NCBI RefSeq assembly: GCF_009914755.1
Contig: NC_060938.1
Strand: one strand, 5' to 3'
Source: the human T2T-CHM13v2.0 reference genome, Homo sapiens
Length of the DNA: 64,000 bases
In this document: positions 19,099-64,000 of the stretch, piece after piece
Layout of the letters: each line of letters begins with the position of its first letter
How positions within the stretch are numbered: the stretch's first letter is position 1
Notes under the pieces: generated by a model
Told to the model about the DNA's origin: nothing
Databases searched by the model: none
Seen by the model: the letters and a program-made list of their open reading frames with translations, nothing else
Made by a program: the position numbers and the translations under genes

Positions 19099-20489
19099 CT
19101 AGTAAAAATTTCAATCAAAGCCTGGACTATCATTTGTTTGAAATAAGAATTCAAATATTATTTGGATGGCTAGAATAAATTATTCAGGCTATTTAGACCA
19201 AACCATTATATGAGTGCACAAAAGGCTCCAGTTGTAAGGAACAGGTGAATATTCTGAAAAGAAGGGCAATTCCTGTGCTTCAAAAGCCAATCATGTATAT
19301 TTATGGTTTTGTTTTGTTATAAACTCAAGAGAAAGAGATGAACAAAAGTGGTTGGTGGCTTTCCAATAGGGTTAAGAGGAAAAGAGGGAACTAATATTTA
19401 TTGCATGTTTACAATGTGCCAGTAAAATAAAAGGGAGATGCTGGAATTTTTTTTTTAAATTCCCAATTTCTATACAGCAGTATATAGTTTATCAATAGCA
19501 AAGAAAGACAATTTGAAAAAGTAATGGTTATTGTTAAACCTGCTTTATTTTCCACCAAGTCTTGGCAGGATGAGATTCAGGATTAGAACAGAAGGTTTAC
19601 CTTGTTCATAAGATACATCTAAATGAAGGTGTGGGAGGGGAGGGCTAGAACTGCATGTTAAGAAGTATGTAAGTGTATGGAAACCCATAAAGTTAAGAGT
19701 TGAAGTGTATGGGAGTGAATTTGGATGAGATTTCTTTAGAGCAAAATAAACATTTTTTCTTAATAAATACTACAGGTTGCTTAATCAGAATGACAAAACA
19801 GGTAAAGAGGCAAGGTGGTCATGATGGTGTGGTATTAATTTCATAAAGCTATCTGTTGCTTTGGAGGCATGGGCCCCAGTCTTAGCATACCTGAGCTTGA
19901 GTTCTAGTATTTGCATTTTATCCTTTTCATTATTGACAAAATGAGAATTAATCAAACTTATTTTAATTATTCAAAGTAATGAAATGTATGTGAAAAGCCT
20001 TTGTAAGGTGTAAGACACTATGAAGTGTTTGTTTTGGTAACAATGAAGTTATCCAGTAAGAGTCTTATTCTGCTAGTCATGGATATGCATGGGCAACAAT
20101 GTCTGCCTCCCCAGATTCCAGTCACTCCTCTCTATTGTGTTGCATCATGAAGCTTGAGAGGAATGGATTGATTGATTGGTCCCATTCCCTAACCCATATC
20201 TCAATAAAGTCATTGGACTGTAACCCATATCTCAATAGAGTCATTGAGATATATTGCATTAAGCCATGCCTGAAGCCCTATTTTCTCTCTGGGCATTCTA
20301 GTTTTATGAGCCAATAAATCCCCTTCAGCTTGAGTTGAAATTTTTGTTTCTTGCAATTGAAACAATCTTGATTGATGAAACATTTAATAAATTTTGACTC
20401 ACTGACAGTTTTATGGAAAAGAATGTAATGGAGACCAGGAAGAATACTGTTACTCTGGATTTAATTCTGATTGATAGGAAAGAACTTGT

Positions 20490-20750
20490 TAATGACATGT
20501 ATGGTAGGTTAAATGAAAGTAGCTTTGGAGTCAAATATATTTGGGTCTAAGCCCTCATTCCAGCATTTGTTATCAGTGTTACTTTAAGCAAATAACTTAA
20601 TGCCTTTCAGCTTTAGTTTCCTCATCTATAAGTTGGGTGTAATAATAATGTCTATATCATCGGAGTGGTAATTAGGATTAATAGATAATTAATAGATAAC
20701 ACACATAAAATATGCCATAGCACATATTAAGGATTCAACAGGGATTAGGT
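20490..20750 (+). mobile_element. MIR
   Basis: 'gctttggagtcaaat...cagctttagtttcctcatctataagttggg' MIR core. Confidence 0.7.
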
Positions 20751-22965: not shown

Positions 22966-24276
22966 GCCCTCTCCCTCTCCCTCTCCCCTTTGCACGGTCT
23001 CCCTCTGATGCCGAGCGGAGGCTGGACTGTACTGCCGCCATCTCGGCTCACTGCAACCTCCCTGCCTGATTCTCCTGCCTTAGCCTGCCCAGTGCCTGGG
23101 ATTGCAGGTGCACGCCACCACGCCTGACTGGTTTTTGTATTTTTTCGTGGAGACGGGGTTTTGCAGTGTTGGCCGGGCTGGTCTCCAGCTCCTGACCGCG
23201 AGTGATCTGCCAGCCTCGGCCTCCCGAGGTGCCGGGATTGCAGACGGAGTCTCGCTCACTCAGTGCTCAATGTTGCCCAGGCTGGAGTGCAGTGGCGTGA
23301 TCTTGGCTCGCTACAATCTCCACCTCCCAGCCGCCTGCCTTGGCCTCCCAAAGTGCCGAGATTGCAGCCTCTGCCCCGCCGCCACCCCGTCTAGGAAGTG
23401 AGGAGCGTCTCTGCCCGGCCGCCCATCGTCTGGGATGTGAGGAGCCCCTCTGCCCGGCCGCCCAGTCTGGGATGTGAGGAGCGCCTCTGCCGTGCAGCGA
23501 CCCCGTCTGGGAACTGAGGAGTGTCTCTGCCCTGCCGCCACCCCGTCTGGGAGGTGAGGAGCATCTCTGACCGGCCGCCCCGTCTGGGAAGTGAGGAGCG
23601 TCTCCGCCTGGCAGCTGCCCCGTCAGGGAGGTGGGGGGCAGCCCCCGCCCAGCCGCCGCCCCGTCTGGGAGTTGCGGGGGCGCCTCTGCCCGGCGCCCCG
23701 TCTGGGAAGTGAGGAGCCCCTCTGCCCGGCCGCCACCCCGTCTGGGAGGTGTACCCAACAGCTCATCGAGAACGGGCCATGATGACAATGGCGGTTTTGT
23801 CGAATAGAAAGGGGGGAAGTGTGGGGAAAAGAAAGAGAGATTGGATTGTTCCTGTGTCTGTGTGGAAAGAAGTAGACATAGGAGACTCCATTTTGTTCTG
23901 TACTAAGAAAAATTCTTCTGCCTTGGGATGCTGTTAATCTATAACCTTGCCCCCAACCCCGTGCTCTCTGAAACAGGTGCTGTGTCCACTCAGGGTTAAA
24001 TGGATTAAGGGCGGTGCAAGATGTGCTTTGTTAAACAGATGCTTGAAGGCAGCATGCTGGTTAAGAGTCATCACCACTCCCTAATCTCAAGTACCCAGGG
24101 GCACAAACACTGCGGAAGGCGGCAGGGCCCTCTGCCTAGGAAAACCAGAGACCTTTGTTCACATGTTTATCTGCTGACCTTCCCTCCACTATTGTCCTAT
24201 GACCCTGCCAAATCCCCCTCTCCGAGAAACACCCAAGAATGATCAATAAATACTAAAAAAAAAAAAAAAAAAAAAA
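22966..24276 (+). mobile_element. SVA retrotransposon, older (A-C type) subfamily
   Basis: (CCCTCT)n head, antisense Alu-like region, GC-rich VNTR (~23370-23750), SINE-R, AATAAA 24245-24250, poly-A 24255-24276. Confidence 0.97.
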
Positions 24277-27950: not shown

Positions 27951-29429
27951 TTTTATGTAATAATTACATAATTTTATGTAATTTTATGTCTTGGGTTTCC
28001 ACACTTACTATCTTATGGAACCTGTTCCCTTGAAGGTCACCAGTGACCTCATAATGGTTATTTTAGAAAGCCTTTCCCCCCCCATAATGGCCTTTTTAGG
28101 GTATAGCTATCATGCAATAAATTGAATATATTTAAAGTACACAGTTTGATAAATTGTGACATATGTATACACCCATGACGCCATCACCACAATCAAATTG
28201 ATTAACATAACCATCAATCACAAAAGTTTTTTTGTGCCCTCTCATGATCCTGTTTTTCTCTTTTTGCCCCCGTCTTCCTTTCCCAAGCAAACATGAATGC
28301 ACTTTCTGTCACTGTAGATTAGTTTAAAATTTCCAGAATTTCTAGAATTTTATGTAAATGAACAATATATACTTCTTTTGGTCTATTTTTTATTTTTTTT
28401 TACTCAGCATAATCATTTTGAGATTCTTTTATGTCATGTCTTTTACCAATGGTTCACTCACCTTTATTCCTGAGTAGCATTCCATTGCATGGCTATATCA
28501 CAGTTTGTTTTTCCAATGTATAAGCACATGGTTGTCAAAACATAGTAAAGCATAGGGAACTAACTTAAAGGTGCATGGAACAACAACAATAGCACAGAAA
28601 TAAATGCTGCTATGCCTAAGAATCTAATATGTGATAAAAAGGAGAGTATAAATCAATAAAGTAGGCAAATTTAAACCAAGTATTTTGAAGTTATTAAATG
28701 GATAAATGAGGCAAAAAATCTAAATAGGCCCCTCACTTCACTCAATATAGCAGGGGTAATTAAGAAGAACAATGACATTATTAAGATTATATAGTTTACA
28801 TTTATTAAATCAGTTGTGACATGATCTCCTTTTAGAAAGATTATTTAGTCGTGGTGCGAAGGATAAACTAGAAATAGTAATCACTGAATTATGGATGCCA
28901 AAGTAAGGAGGTTATGGTAGCATTAGGATCATGAGTTAATAAAAACAAGGCAATGAGAATGGAGAGGAAAGGGAAACTATCAGAGATTTCAAAATTTCAG
29001 AGGAAGAAATGATAGGGGGAATCATATTTTTCTAACTGCAATTTAATAGAAGCAATCCCTTAACTTTTTTCCAGGCTTGTCTTCAGGTGATAGAGACTTG
29101 TAATTTCTCTTGGAAAAACATTTTACTAGGTGACTAGGATTCAAGCTGTAAATCTTGGTTAATCACAAACTTTATGAGTTTAGATTAGTTGTGTAACCTT
29201 CTGGACTGTTTGCTTTCTCTCCTGTAAAGGTCAACTCTAAGACTTCTTACAACTTCAGATTTCTTGGATAATAATTTATTATCTTGAACTGCATCTCCAA
29301 TTGGGCCTAAGACAACAGACCAATTCAGTGGGAAATGAAAATAATAAATGAATTGTATGGGCTAACTACCACTCACAGGGCCTTAGTGAAGAAGGTGACT
29401 ATAATCTAGATTAAAAGTCTTTCCACACG

Positions 29430-29880
29430 GTGTTTTCTCTTAATGATGAAGGAAGCTGTGCAGGCAGGAATAGGGTTACAGGGTACTAATTCGCTTCTGC
29501 TCTGCTGGGTTGAATGGCACTCAAGAGGTTGAGTGTTTGTAATGAAACACACACAAGTTCTGGAGGCAAGAAGACTAGAGTTTTGTTACTTTTGACAAGT
29601 TACAGGTCAATAGAGACTGCCTCTTAAGAAGACCTAGAGGAAAATGCAACTTTTTAATTAATCTCCTGTGTTTCTCTGGCTCATGCCATTATCATAGATA
29701 AGACCAAGGGATGCCTCTGGTGATTCATTAGAACTCTTAGGCTCACTGATTACTCTTTGGTCTCTAAATGCTTCTCTGTGGTAAGAAGAGTAGTTAACAA
29801 AGGAAGCTGGGTTTCCCCAGAGGACCTTATTAAAACTGTTGTGGTTTTGAAGTGATTAACATGTAAATGAATTAATGTGG
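29430..29880. promoter_or_regulatory. Putative human orthologue of the olfactory-receptor H enhancer core
   Basis: AACTTTTTAATTA (29648-29660), 12/13 to the mouse H/P 13-mer AACTTTTTAATGA; further homeodomain sites at 29441, 29686, 29725; O/E-like sites at 29702-29711 and 29814-29823; non-repetitive; upstream of TRAV2. Confidence 0.75.
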
Positions 29881-30929
29881 TCAATGAACCAAGCTATGCA
29901 CACAGAGCATATCTAGGAGGCAGAGAATCATACAGTCTAGTCATACTCAGGAGGAAACTGTTTAGCATTCAGAGGTGAATTCTGGAAGAAAGATGAAAAA
30001 GGAACTCAGAATTACTGCTTTAATTTCAGAAACACTAAACATGAAATGACAGAAGATTAGAAGATTTTTGTAGAGTTTGTACATGTTGCTTTAGAATAGA
30101 TTCCTGGAGCAAAAGTAGAAATGGCTTACCATTAGAGCAAGCAGGTTAGCTCAAGAGGCTATACTAAGCTACTTTTGCACACCTGGTGGCACCACATCCT
30201 ATTTGCAGTCTGCAAACATCATCACCTCCCTTAAATGTGACACTTGTTATATCTCAGAGGCAAGTTAATCTTACTCAACTGTATAGAATAGATTAGAGGG
30301 TGGAGAGAGCTAGCTGATTTAAACTCTAGGTGAATGTTAGAAACAAATACTGAAATTGAAAGTCAGAAAGAGAGGCAGGTTTTGTGTGAAAAGCAGTTAG
30401 ATTTTGACTTGTGTAATAATAAGATCTCTTGAGTAAATAAAACAAAATTTCTCTTAGGAGTTCATCAGTTTCCTTTGCAGTCCTAACTCACTAGGGATGT
30501 CAGAGTTAGGGTCATTATAGCATTCTTTGTGAGTTACAGTTAGTTGTAGCCTGTTTGCATTTACTGATTTTTATGAGATAAAGTTGCTTTACTACCATTT
30601 GCCTACAAATTGTAATGGAAATTAAAATCTATGGGTCTGTGATGTGAATAGTTCTCCTGGGGTTGGACAGTGCACACCTGCATGACTATAGGCAAAACCA
30701 TGTCAGATGAGATGTTTATTTAAAAATAAATGGCTCACCTACTTCCCTAAAATTTTTCTTTGAAATGACTACCAAAGATACAGGTAGGACTGATTGAGAA
30801 AAGGCAGAAATTGAAGGTCTGAAAAGAGAGAAAAGTCAAGAAAGAAGAATAAAAAGATGTAGTCTGGGAAGTATTAGGCAAATTAGGCTTGAGCAATATT
30901 ATGAAAGTTTTCAGCATTGTTCCCTTATA

Positions 30930-33540
<2,611 letters not shown>

Positions 33541-34498
33541 ATGCTATTCTGTCATGCCTCAATCAATCTTCATCACAGAGCACAGTCTCTTCATCATTTC
33601 CCACAAAATCCAGTTACAGCAAGTAATTATTTTTCAATAGACTTTATTGGAGTCTATTTGAATAATTGGCAGATAAAGTCCCATTTTTGTTGTATGTTAC
33701 TTTTTGCCATCTTGGAGGGTTTTACCATTTTTTCCTTTACTTATCTCCCACCCTATCCCCAGATGCCTCTCCCTGTAATATTAAACCTATTCTTTCTTCT
33801 TTGATCCTACTTGGTGTTATTTTCTTCTCTAATCATTGTCCAAAACCAATGAAGTTCTCTTAGAACTTTGGAAGAATTCAAATGAATTAGAATTATATTT
33901 TGTTATAAATATTAAAGTCCCAGGTAAGTTGCATATAGATCATTTCAAAATGTCTTTTCAAGCTATCCAATGACATTTTGGCTGGCTGCTGCTTGTGAAA
34001 CCACCAAGATCTCCATCCTCCTTCTTTCTTTCTTTGTCTCTCTCCACCTGAATTAATTTTTGTCCTTTCATAGATGAGACCTATTTTTTTTTGTAACTTG
34101 GAGAGAGGTGAGAAAATTTGGATCAGTAAAAAGGCTAAGGTGAAGAGATGAGAAAATATTGGAGGAGGAAGGCATACCATCTGTTCTCCACTTGTCTCCT
34201 CATACTGATTTTGAGCCCCCTGTAGAGACAGAATTTTAGAGATAGAAGTGGATTGAAATATGTTCAAAAGGAGCTTTGTGAGATGTACAGAAAATACACT
34301 CTCTTTTCCAGCACTAATGGACATTCTAAAAAATTGGGCATGTATTAGGCTACAAAGGAAGCTTCAATATTGGAGACATTGTAGCTGCATTCTCTTTTTG
34401 GTCAGAAGCAAGACAGGGATAACCACTATCAGTGCTACTCTTTGTTATTTTCCTCCAGTAGTATGTTTGCAGAAATATTCTTTAGTGTATACATCAGA

Positions 34499-38003: not shown

Positions 38004-38516
38004 ATGGCTTTGCAGAGCACTCTGGGGGCGGTGTGGCTAGGGCTTCTCCTCAACTCTCTCTGGAAGGGTGAGTAGCCTCCTTCACTATTTGGTTTTGTAA
38101 AAGTGTATGAAATTGTTTTAAAATTTGGACTCATTTTTAATACAAAAACAAGAGAAGTCAGATCTAACATTCACTGTACCTAAGGGGCAATCAACAAGCC
38201 AAATAGTACTATTAAAGTGACAGCCCTTTTTGTTTTCTGTAGTTGCAGAAAGCAAGGACCAAGTGTTTCAGCCTTCCACAGTGGCATCTTCAGAGGGAGC
38301 TGTGGTGGAAATCTTCTGTAATCACTCTGTGTCCAATGCTTACAACTTCTTCTGGTACCTTCACTTCCCGGGATGTGCACCAAGACTCCTTGTTAAAGGC
38401 TCAAAGCCTTCTCAGCAGGGACGATACAACATGACCTATGAACGGTTCTCTTCATCGCTGCTCATCCTCCAGGTGCGGGAGGCAGATGCTGCTGTTTACT
38501 ACTGTGCTGTGGAGGA
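38004..38516 (+). CDS. TRAV2: T cell receptor alpha variable 2 (germline V segment)
   Basis: Leader exon 38004-38067 (MALQSTLGAVWLGLLLNSLWK), GT-AG intron, V exon 38243-38516 (KDQVFQPSTVASSEG...FCNHSVSNAYNFFWY...YYCAVE), then RSS. Confidence 0.97.
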
Positions 38517-38555
38517 CACAGAGGCAGGGAACCCATGAAGAGCTGAACAGAAACA
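38517..38555 (+). other. TRAV2 23-RSS
   Basis: CACAGAG + 23 nt + ACAGAAACA. Confidence 0.95.
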
Positions 38556-62749: not shown

Positions 62750-64000
62750 TCTGTGGGGTGGGAGTCACAGCCTAGAAAGAAGTCCAAAAGTGCTTTCTAA
62801 AATTTTTATTTTCAAAAGGTATTAGCAAATTTATGTATTCTTCTACTATTTGCAAAATCAATCTTATTTATTTTTTAAATAGGTATTTCACTTATGTGAT
62901 CTAAAATTAAAAAAGTATAAAAGGGCATACAGCATGATGTCTTCCTTCCACCATGGTCCCTGAGTACTCAATTATCAAAGTGAGGTATCTGTGGTATTTA
63001 TACTATTGTTGCTAAGTTCACTGGTACTCCTCAGTTTGTGTGTATAGACAGACACACACTACATATACTTTATATGCATACCACGCACAGTCAACATGGG
63101 CAATATGCTTCTTAGCTTTTGAAACATTTAGCCTAAGTATCAGGTTATTATTTATAGCTGCACACATTTTGAACATTTCTGTGGCCATTTCCAAGTATCT
63201 ACATGCTGGTTTCCATGCGTCCCCTGAGATTAGATCTCTCACTCTCTCTGTTGCCTGTCTTTCTCTTTTCTTTTGTCCCACTTCCCTATTGTGGATGGTA
63301 TGTAATGGAAAATGGAGGTGATGGTAGAGGAGGAGATGGGAGAGAATTTGTTTCTGATTTGCATTGTAGACTATTTTTGAAACATCTAAATCAGAAATGG
63401 ATTCTGGATCATTATTAGTTTTTAAAGTTGGGTTCTTTGAGGCTCCAAAGAGAGAAGAATAACAGAAAATTTGCTGAAAATCCTGCTTGGGCTCCTGAGG
63501 CTTCATTAGGATCATGGGGTATGTTTTTGTTTGTTTGTTTTTTGTGGGATGTTGTCTCTGATTTTGATCACAAGGAAAGCAATATTTGATAATTTTTTTA
63601 TTGAGAATGAGAGGATCAGGCTATGTGGCAGGAGGAGGTTTCCATCTAGTTCATCTGAGGGTTTGGTGGGGGAGTAGTATTGTGGAAAGAAAACAAACAT
63701 TTGTAGAGTATTCGAGCCTATACACTCATCTCCTTTGTCTGACTTCTCTACACAGTGACGAGGAGCTGGCAGAAAGTGGGAGTCCTGGTCCCCAAATGTC
63801 CAGGATGCAGCCAACTCTTCTCTGAAGTGCTCCACTATTTCCAGTACTTCATGTGGCACAGACAATATCCTCAAAAAAGCCTAGGGTTTCTGATTTTCAT
63901 ATTCTCAATGGAGAAAATGAGGAAGGAATATTTACAGTTCATTTGAATAAAGACAATGAATACACCCCTTTGCACAAAACAGACCCAAAGGCTGGCGACT

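What the first reader, a model, noticed from the sequence alone, without database searches (positions are those of the whole stretch)
29430..29880. Olfactory-receptor H-element enhancer core embedded in the TCR alpha V region
Seen: in a repeat-free island, ATGCAACTTTTTAATTAATCT (29644-29664) aligns with the recalled mouse H 21-mer ACATAACTTTTTAATGAGTCT. Within 80 bp follow CCATTA (29686), O/E-like GACCAAGGGA (29702) and TCATTA (29725); TAATGA (29441) and TCCCCAGAGG (29814) lie nearby. Known: mouse H is a human-conserved Lhx2/Ebf enhancer controlling choice of the MOR28 cluster beside the Tcra V genes, with a core of three homeodomain sites and one O/E site. Inference: this is its human orthologue, ~8 kb from TRAV2, so two one-receptor-per-cell systems interleave here. 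No ORF marks it.
Basis: partly seen in the sequence, partly recalled or inferred. Interest (0 to 1): 0.75.

Follow-up and report, generated by a model that had tools for sequence, protein, structure and literature searches.

The report
Human olfactory-receptor H enhancer core
This non-coding stretch matches the published mouse and rat "H" smell-receptor enhancer and sits in the same place among the T-cell receptor genes, so it is the long-known human counterpart, which likely helps nose neurons switch on the neighbouring odour-receptor genes.

Summary
Real, correctly identified, already known. Published rodent H sequence supplies the evidence. By eye, window 29629-29678 matches mouse H at 41/50. 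The 44-nt core matches rat H at 36/44, with 25 bases identical in a row; that 25-mer is unique in the human genome at up to 3 mismatches. Both published mouse H ChIP primers map 36-155 bp further on, in the right order. The site lies between the OR4E/OR10G cluster and TRAV2, inside a 2,023-bp RefSeq enhancer; mouse H is 2.1 kb. H was named for its human-mouse homology, and the interleaving of OR and TRAV genes is in print. Likely mechanism, inferred from mouse: LHX2/EBF/LDB1 bind it in olfactory neurons and raise the chance of choosing a nearby OR gene in cis. I found no human functional data. One small twist: human and rat read TAATTA where mouse has TAATGA, so the 13-mer that mouse H shares with P looks mouse-derived.

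The parts
28725..30747 (.). RefSeq functional element 'enhancer', 2,023 bp; likely the human H region (mouse H is 2.1 kb)
   Evidence: Hub annotation table; size of mouse H from PMC5638857; single match in the genome search. The assay behind the RefSeq record was not seen, so equating the record with H is inference.
29629..29827 (.). Human core H, the span bounded by the three rodent anchors (199 bp; mouse core H is given as 187 bp)
   Evidence: Anchors compared by eye; 187 bp from PMC7804114
29629..29678 (-). Block matching published mouse H (41/50) and, over 29629-29672, rat H (36/44; 29648-29672 identical)
   Evidence: PMC6744719 supplement against window minus strand, by eye; chance level; uniqueness
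29648..29660 (+). Extended homeodomain site HD1 (TAATTA at 29655-29660); 12/13 to the mouse H/P 13-mer, identical to rat H
29662..29670 (-). O/E-like half-site one base from HD1, identical to the 9-nt mouse H O/E-like site used by Degl'Innocenti et al.; HD1 plus this half-site (29648-29666) is 18/19 identical to the Sfaktiria composite EMSA probe
   Evidence: by eye
29686..29691 (-). Homeodomain site HD2 (TAATGG)
   Evidence: mouse counterpart not seen
29702..29711 (+).
   Evidence: only its last bases overlap the mouse forward primer
29708..29727 (+). Match to the mouse H ChIP forward primer, 16/20 ungapped, all four differences A/G transitions
   Evidence: PMC5608512 supplement 8, by eye; 1.1e-4 expected in 400 nt, 0.035 in the window
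29714..29730 (-). HD3 (TAATGA, 29725-29730) with an O/E-like site one base away: best LHX2/EBF composite candidate
   Evidence: One mismatch to TAATKR-NN-YYYCARRRR; full match to the degenerate composite pattern of PMC11643329; counts of both patterns are at chance
29806..29827 (-). Match to the mouse H ChIP reverse primer (about 15/20 with two gaps), covering the O/E site at 29814-29823
   Evidence: by eye; O/E pattern hit at 29815
29441..29446 (+).
   Evidence: 25 such hexamers on the plus strand of the window
38004..38555 (+). TRAV2 V segment with its recombination signal, 8.3 kb from HD1: neighbour, not a part of the enhancer
   Evidence: Hub table

Best explanation
This block is the human orthologue of the mouse H element core, and it likely works as an olfactory-neuron enhancer that raises the chance that a neuron chooses one of the neighbouring OR genes. 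Shown here: sequence match to mouse and rat H at three colinear anchors, a single copy in the genome, and a position between the OR4E/OR10G cluster and TRAV2. Inferred from mouse work: LHX2 binds the three homeodomain sites, EBF binds the adjacent O/E-like sites, LDB1 is recruited through LHX2, and the element joins enhancer hubs and acts in cis. Predicted human targets are OR4E2 (intact, 313 aa, coding start 39 kb away), OR4E1 (frameshifted in this assembly, 33 kb) and, more weakly, OR10G2 and OR10G3. Its place among TRAV segments likely reflects old synteny and not a role in T cells.
For: 41/50 to mouse H and 36/44 to rat H, with 25 identical bases in a row (by eye). A 44-mer of this composition reaches at best 26/44 elsewhere in the window and 24-30/44 in 60 Markov-simulated windows (that control used a stretch shifted by one base). 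The 25-mer is unique in the genome at up to 3 mismatches, against 3 + 4 hits for the reversed control. The mouse ChIP primer pair maps in order and facing, about 120 bp apart end to end. Mouse H is at mm10 chr14:52,547,909-52,548,295, after the OR cluster and before the TCR cluster, with Olfr1509/1508/1507 between Trav1 and Trav2. Mouse deletion abolished three proximal ORs and lowered four distal ones (PMC5638857 passage); mutating HD and O/E sites abolished activity (PMC12547500 passage). EBF1 and LHX2 activity is enriched in developing human olfactory neurons (PMC13090377 passage). RefSeq marks a 2,023-bp enhancer over the site (hub table).
Against: No human binding, accessibility, reporter or deletion data for this element were found in ten literature searches. 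Only about 90 nt of mouse H could be seen, so no full alignment or multi-mammal conservation test was made. Motif counts alone are at chance. HD1 lacks the exact mouse 13-mer. Human has two OR4E loci between TRAV1-2 and H, one of them broken, where mouse has three, so constraint may be relaxed. The basis of the RefSeq enhancer record is unseen.
Confidence: 0.85

Rival explanations
1. It is the H orthologue but a weakened or vestigial one in humans: the sequence persists, yet it contributes little to OR choice.
For: HD1 differs from the potent mouse 21-mer at 5 of 21 bases, two of them in or next to the homeodomain hexamer; the nearest OR, OR4E1, is frameshifted and no further OR coding remnant lies in the window; about 82% identity is high but was not compared with neutral mouse-human divergence here.
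Against: Rat H has the same HD1 form as human over 25 bases; that form is 18/19 identical to the Sfaktiria composite used for binding assays; TAATTA fits the TAATKR definition; three HD sites and the O/E site at 29814 are intact; OR4E2 is intact.
Confidence: 0.1
2. The element is, or also serves as, a lymphoid regulatory element for nearby TRAV1/TRAV2 segments, which would explain why it stays inside the TRA locus.
For: It lies 8.3 kb from TRAV2 but 30-50 kb from the annotated OR4E 5' ends; PMC6744719 raises shared OR/TCR regulatory elements as plausible and says testing in H-deficient T cells is needed; the cell type behind the RefSeq enhancer record is unknown.
Against: The same paper says no shared element has been identified; the conserved motifs are LHX2/EBF-type, and these factors are not the usual T-cell set (own knowledge); mouse H effects are reported on OR genes; a search for TRAV2 with olfactory receptor and enhancer gave 2 papers, neither on this by title or abstract.
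Confidence: 0.04
3. It is a chance cluster of AT-rich motifs with no relation to H.
For: Every motif count is at chance level; 16/21 is expected 0.43 times per window.
Against: 41/50 to mouse H has 3.7e-6 expected hits genome-wide; 25/25 to rat H is unique in the genome; two more colinear anchors; matching synteny.
Confidence: 0.01

Closest known systems
Mouse H element / core H (Serizawa 2003; Fuss 2007; Nishizumi 2007; these three papers not read, seen only as cited)
   Same: Same sequence core (41/50), same order of anchors, same position between the OR4E genes and TRAV2, similar size of region (2.0 vs 2.1 kb) and core (199 bp anchored vs 187 bp).
   Different: HD1 reads TAATTA, not TAATGA, with a second change two bases on; distance to the nearest OR is about 30-33 kb against 55 kb or 75 kb in mouse; two OR4E loci (one broken) instead of three; function not shown in human cells in the papers I could read.
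Rat H orthologue (PMC6744719 supplement)
   Same: 25 consecutive identical bases including HD1 and the adjacent O/E-like half-site; 36/44 overall.
   Different: Eight differences, all in the flank upstream of the extended HD site.
Greek Island OR enhancers, e.g. Sfaktiria (Monahan 2017, PMC5608512)
   Same: HD site with an O/E-like site one base away; 29648-29666 is 18/19 identical to the Sfaktiria composite probe; H is one of the 63 islands.
   Different: At HD1 the second half of the EBF site is missing in human, mouse and rat alike; islands are defined by ChIP/ATAC in mouse neurons, not available here.
Mouse P element and P3 promoter
   Same: Share the extended homeodomain run with H.
   Different: Exact 13-mer identity holds for mouse H with mouse P, mouse P3 and rat P, but not for rat or human H; flanks are unrelated.

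Membership tests
H element (orthologue) | Sequence homology to rodent core H | tested here: met
   41/50 mouse, 36/44 rat, two primer anchors (by eye); about 90 nt of mouse sequence only
H element (orthologue) | No better match to rodent H elsewhere in the human genome | tested here: met
   25-mer unique at up to 3 mismatches; the tool warns that very common words are skipped
H element (orthologue) | Position between the MOR28/OR4E-OR10G cluster and the bulk of TCR-alpha V genes | tested here: met
   Hub table; OR4E2 and OR4E1 located in L003; mouse order
H element (orthologue) | Homology across the whole ~2-kb region and conservation across mammals | not testable with these tools
   No other mammalian genome is held; hg38 liftover table of PMC10088727 unreadable
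H element (orthologue) | Extended homeodomain site at HD1 | tested here: met
   Identical to rat H; 12/13 to the mouse 13-mer, which rat H also does not match exactly
Class II OR enhancers / Greek Islands | Several homeodomain sites (TAATKR) with neighbouring O/E-like sites (YYYCARRRR) | tested here: met
   HD at 29655, 29686, 29725; O/E-like at 29815; such clusters occur at 4 places in the window, so not diagnostic alone
Class II OR enhancers / Greek Islands | LHX2/EBF composite motif scoring above threshold | tested here: inconclusive
   29714-29730 fits two patterns but both at chance frequency; the published scoring matrix was not available
Class II OR enhancers / Greek Islands | LHX2 and EBF co-binding and open chromatin in olfactory neurons | not testable with these tools
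   No human olfactory ChIP/ATAC data at this site found in the searches listed
Class II OR enhancers / Greek Islands | Reporter activity in olfactory neurons, and loss of proximal OR expression on deletion | not testable with these tools
   Reported for mouse H; RefSeq lists an enhancer here but its assay was not seen

The most novel reading that the evidence does not exclude
The 13-mer that mouse H shares with the P element, and with it the 21-bp 'gene choice' unit used in MouSensor transgenes, is a mouse-lineage change and not the conserved core of H. Human and rat keep a TAATTA form like the Sfaktiria composite. If those two bases tune LHX2 binding, mouse H is an unusually strong variant, and human H drives OR4E/OR10G choice with a different strength. 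The sequence difference is seen here (three species, parsimony). The functional effect is untested, and the difference may already be visible in alignments of papers I could not read.
Probability: 0.2. Interest if true: 0.35.

Novelty: already known. Interest (0 to 1): 0.14.

Why it matters
As a discovery it matters little: H is the founding olfactory-receptor enhancer and was found through its human-mouse homology. The value is practical. It fixes the human core at T2T chr14:15,901,629-15,901,827 with its motif map, and names likely targets (OR4E2, OR4E1, OR10G2/3). It also points to a cheap two-base test of whether the mouse form of the key homeodomain site is special. It shows that the first-stage reader can find a real enhancer from raw sequence, although the motifs it cited would not have been enough.

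Tried and rejected
Primary papers Nishizumi 2007, Vassalli 2011 and Markenscoff-Papadimitriou 2014 are not held, so the published human-mouse core alignment and the site-by-site mutations were not seen. The synthetic hub sequence containing mouse H was cut off before the H part. The hg38 liftover table could not be read. The predicted-element tracks of PMC6744719 that were displayed were mouse only and did not list H. A second mouse H 40-mer from the flank was not aligned to the window. Motif statistics as proof of function: rejected, all at chance. Coding or structured-RNA explanation: rejected. Repeat or duplicated element: rejected. A third OR4E-like remnant between OR4E1 and H: none by tblastn of OR4E2 and the OR4E1 fragment against the window at E<0.01. 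A search on OR10G2/OR10G3 with MAIT or TRAV1-2 listed mostly MAIT papers (15 of 586 shown, none opened). No computed alignment to rodent sequence was made: all rodent identity counts are by eye, with chance levels computed from the human strand.

Full report
Observation. The recalled mouse 21-mer is correct: it is printed in bioRxiv 10.1101/2021.09.28.462154 (passages) and PMC8213819 (passages). The human stretch 29644-29664 matches it at 16 of 21 bases by eye. That alone is weak: 0.43 such matches are expected in this window (binomial). The 13-base H/P motif at up to one mismatch occurs twice in the window, at 20483 and 29648, against a shuffle mean of 0.64, with 13 of 100 shuffles reaching 2. 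Three TAATKR sites within 76 bp occur at 4 places among 153 sites. Two versions of the LHX2/EBF composite pattern gave 6 hits vs 6.7 expected in the window and 13 vs 12.2 in the 3-kb locus L002.

Identity. The supplement of Degl'Innocenti et al. 2019 (PMC6744719) prints 44 nt of mouse H and rat H and 6 more mouse bases. Compared by eye with the window's minus strand, 29629-29672 matches mouse at 36/44 (differences at 29661, 29659, 29647-45, 29635, 29631-30) and rat at 36/44, with 29648-29672 identical to rat. With the extra bases the mouse match is 41/50 over 29629-29678. Binomial expectation in the whole genome is 2.6e-4 for 36/44 and 3.7e-6 for 41/50. As an empirical control, the human 44-mer (shifted by one base) scored at best 26/44 elsewhere in the window and 24-30/44 in 60 Markov-simulated windows. 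The 25-mer has one match in the genome at up to 3 mismatches, itself, while the reversed control has 3 + 4. The mouse 25-mer is 2 changes from the human one, so no human site matches mouse with 0 or 1 mismatch, within the tool's stated limits. The 451-bp and 2,023-bp regions each give one match in the genome.

Two more anchors come from the mouse H ChIP primers of Monahan et al. 2017 (PMC5608512 supplement 8). The forward primer matches 29708-29727 at 16/20 without gaps, all differences being transitions; chance is 1.1e-4 in 400 nt and 0.035 in the window. The three anchors are colinear and span 199 bp, close to the 187 bp given for mouse core H (PMC7804114 passages).

Synteny. Mouse H lies at mm10 chr14:52,547,909-52,548,295, after the OR cluster that ends at 52,495,749 and before the TCR alpha/delta cluster. 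Olfr1509, 1508 and 1507 lie between Trav1 and Trav2 in mouse, and OR4E2 lies between TRAV1-2 and TRAV2 in human (PMC4574546 passages). Here the core is 8.3 kb before TRAV2, 33 kb from the OR4E1 coding start and 39 kb from that of OR4E2. OR4E2 is an intact 313-aa frame, OR4E1 is frameshifted near codon 190, and no OR coding remnant lies in the window. The hub table lists a RefSeq enhancer at 28725-30747, 2,023 bp, and mouse H is 2.1 kb (PMC5638857 passages). That this record is H is my inference. Papers give 75 kb or about 55 kb from H to Olfr1507; the mm10 coordinates above give 52 kb to the end of the cluster.

Anatomy. HD1 (TAATTA, 29655-29660) ends the extended homeodomain run and has an O/E-like half-site one base away (29662-29670), the same 9 bases used as the mouse H O/E-like site. 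The stretch 29648-29666 is 18/19 identical to the Sfaktiria composite probe used in binding assays, although the second half of the EBF site is absent in all three species. HD2 (TAATGG, minus, 29686) has no visible mouse counterpart in what I could read. HD3 (TAATGA, minus, 29725) with 29714-29723 is the best composite candidate and is largely covered by the mouse forward primer. The TAATGA at 29441 lies outside the anchored core. No coding frame, Rfam family or repeat explains the block.

Mechanism. Shown: orthology and motif content. Inferred from mouse: LHX2 and EBF bind HD and O/E sites, and composite sites one base apart are enriched in OR enhancers. LDB1 is recruited through LHX2 (PMC11643329 passages). 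Mutating the H sites abolishes activity (PMC12547500 passages), and deleting H removes three proximal ORs and lowers four distal ones in cis. EBF1 and LHX2 activity is enriched in developing human olfactory neurons (PMC13090377 passages). I put 0.97 on orthology and 0.85 on the full statement that it is a working OR-choice enhancer in humans. The rivals are a weakened orthologue (0.10), a lymphoid role (0.04) and chance (0.01).

What is known. H was named for homology to the human sequence (PMC3003330 passages; PMC6744719). PMC10088727 lifted H over to human chr14 and used it as a putative enhancer (passages; its coordinate table could not be read). The closeness of H to the TCR cluster, and the idea of shared regulation, are discussed in PMC6744719, which says none has been found. 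PMC3247239 (passages) added only background. The finding is therefore already known. I found no functional test of the human sequence in ten searches, but the three key primary papers I tried are not held and may contain one; bioRxiv supplements were not open.

One detail. At 29659 and 29661 human and rat agree and mouse differs; at two other positions human and mouse agree against rat. With human as outgroup, the TAATGA form that makes mouse H share a 13-mer with P arose on the mouse branch. A search for H element with rat, human and TAATTA returned one paper, whose passages do not make this point. It rests on three species and one supplement's rat sequence, and may be visible in alignments I could not see. 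Its functional weight is untested, and TAATTA is itself a standard homeodomain site.

Verdict. Real, correctly identified, already known; interest 0.14.

Noticed in passing
window -4028..-3399 (L003:5685-6601, minus strand): OR4E1, the OR gene nearest to H, is frameshifted near codon 190 in this assembly; HGNC lists it as gene/pseudogene. OR4E2 next to it is intact.
   Followed up: partly
window 29629-29827 relative to TRAV1-2 (-31369..-30756) and TRAV2 (38004): By position, any rearrangement to TRAV1-1 or TRAV1-2 (the MAIT-cell V segment) would excise H with OR4E1 and OR4E2, while a TRAV2 rearrangement would keep H 8 kb upstream of the joined gene. Geometric inference only; one search showed nothing on it in the 15 listings.
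   Followed up: partly
window 20483-20495 (+): Second 12/13 match to the mouse H/P 13-mer, 9 kb before H; within chance expectation, flanks unlike H.
   Followed up: partly
window 63492-63508 (-): The only zero-mismatch hit to my strict HD plus O/E composite pattern, about 0.8 kb after TRAV4; no conservation data.
   Followed up: no
window 29816-29832 (-): The O/E site at 29814 has a TAATAA close by and fits the degenerate composite pattern, a possible further composite.
   Followed up: no
window 19927, 32294, 50977: Three other clusters of three TAATKR sites within 76 bp; used as background only.
   Followed up: no
window 23175-23747 and 34089-34258: Two more RefSeq enhancer records flank H (hub table); the first lies inside a repeat-masked stretch. 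Assays unknown.
   Followed up: no
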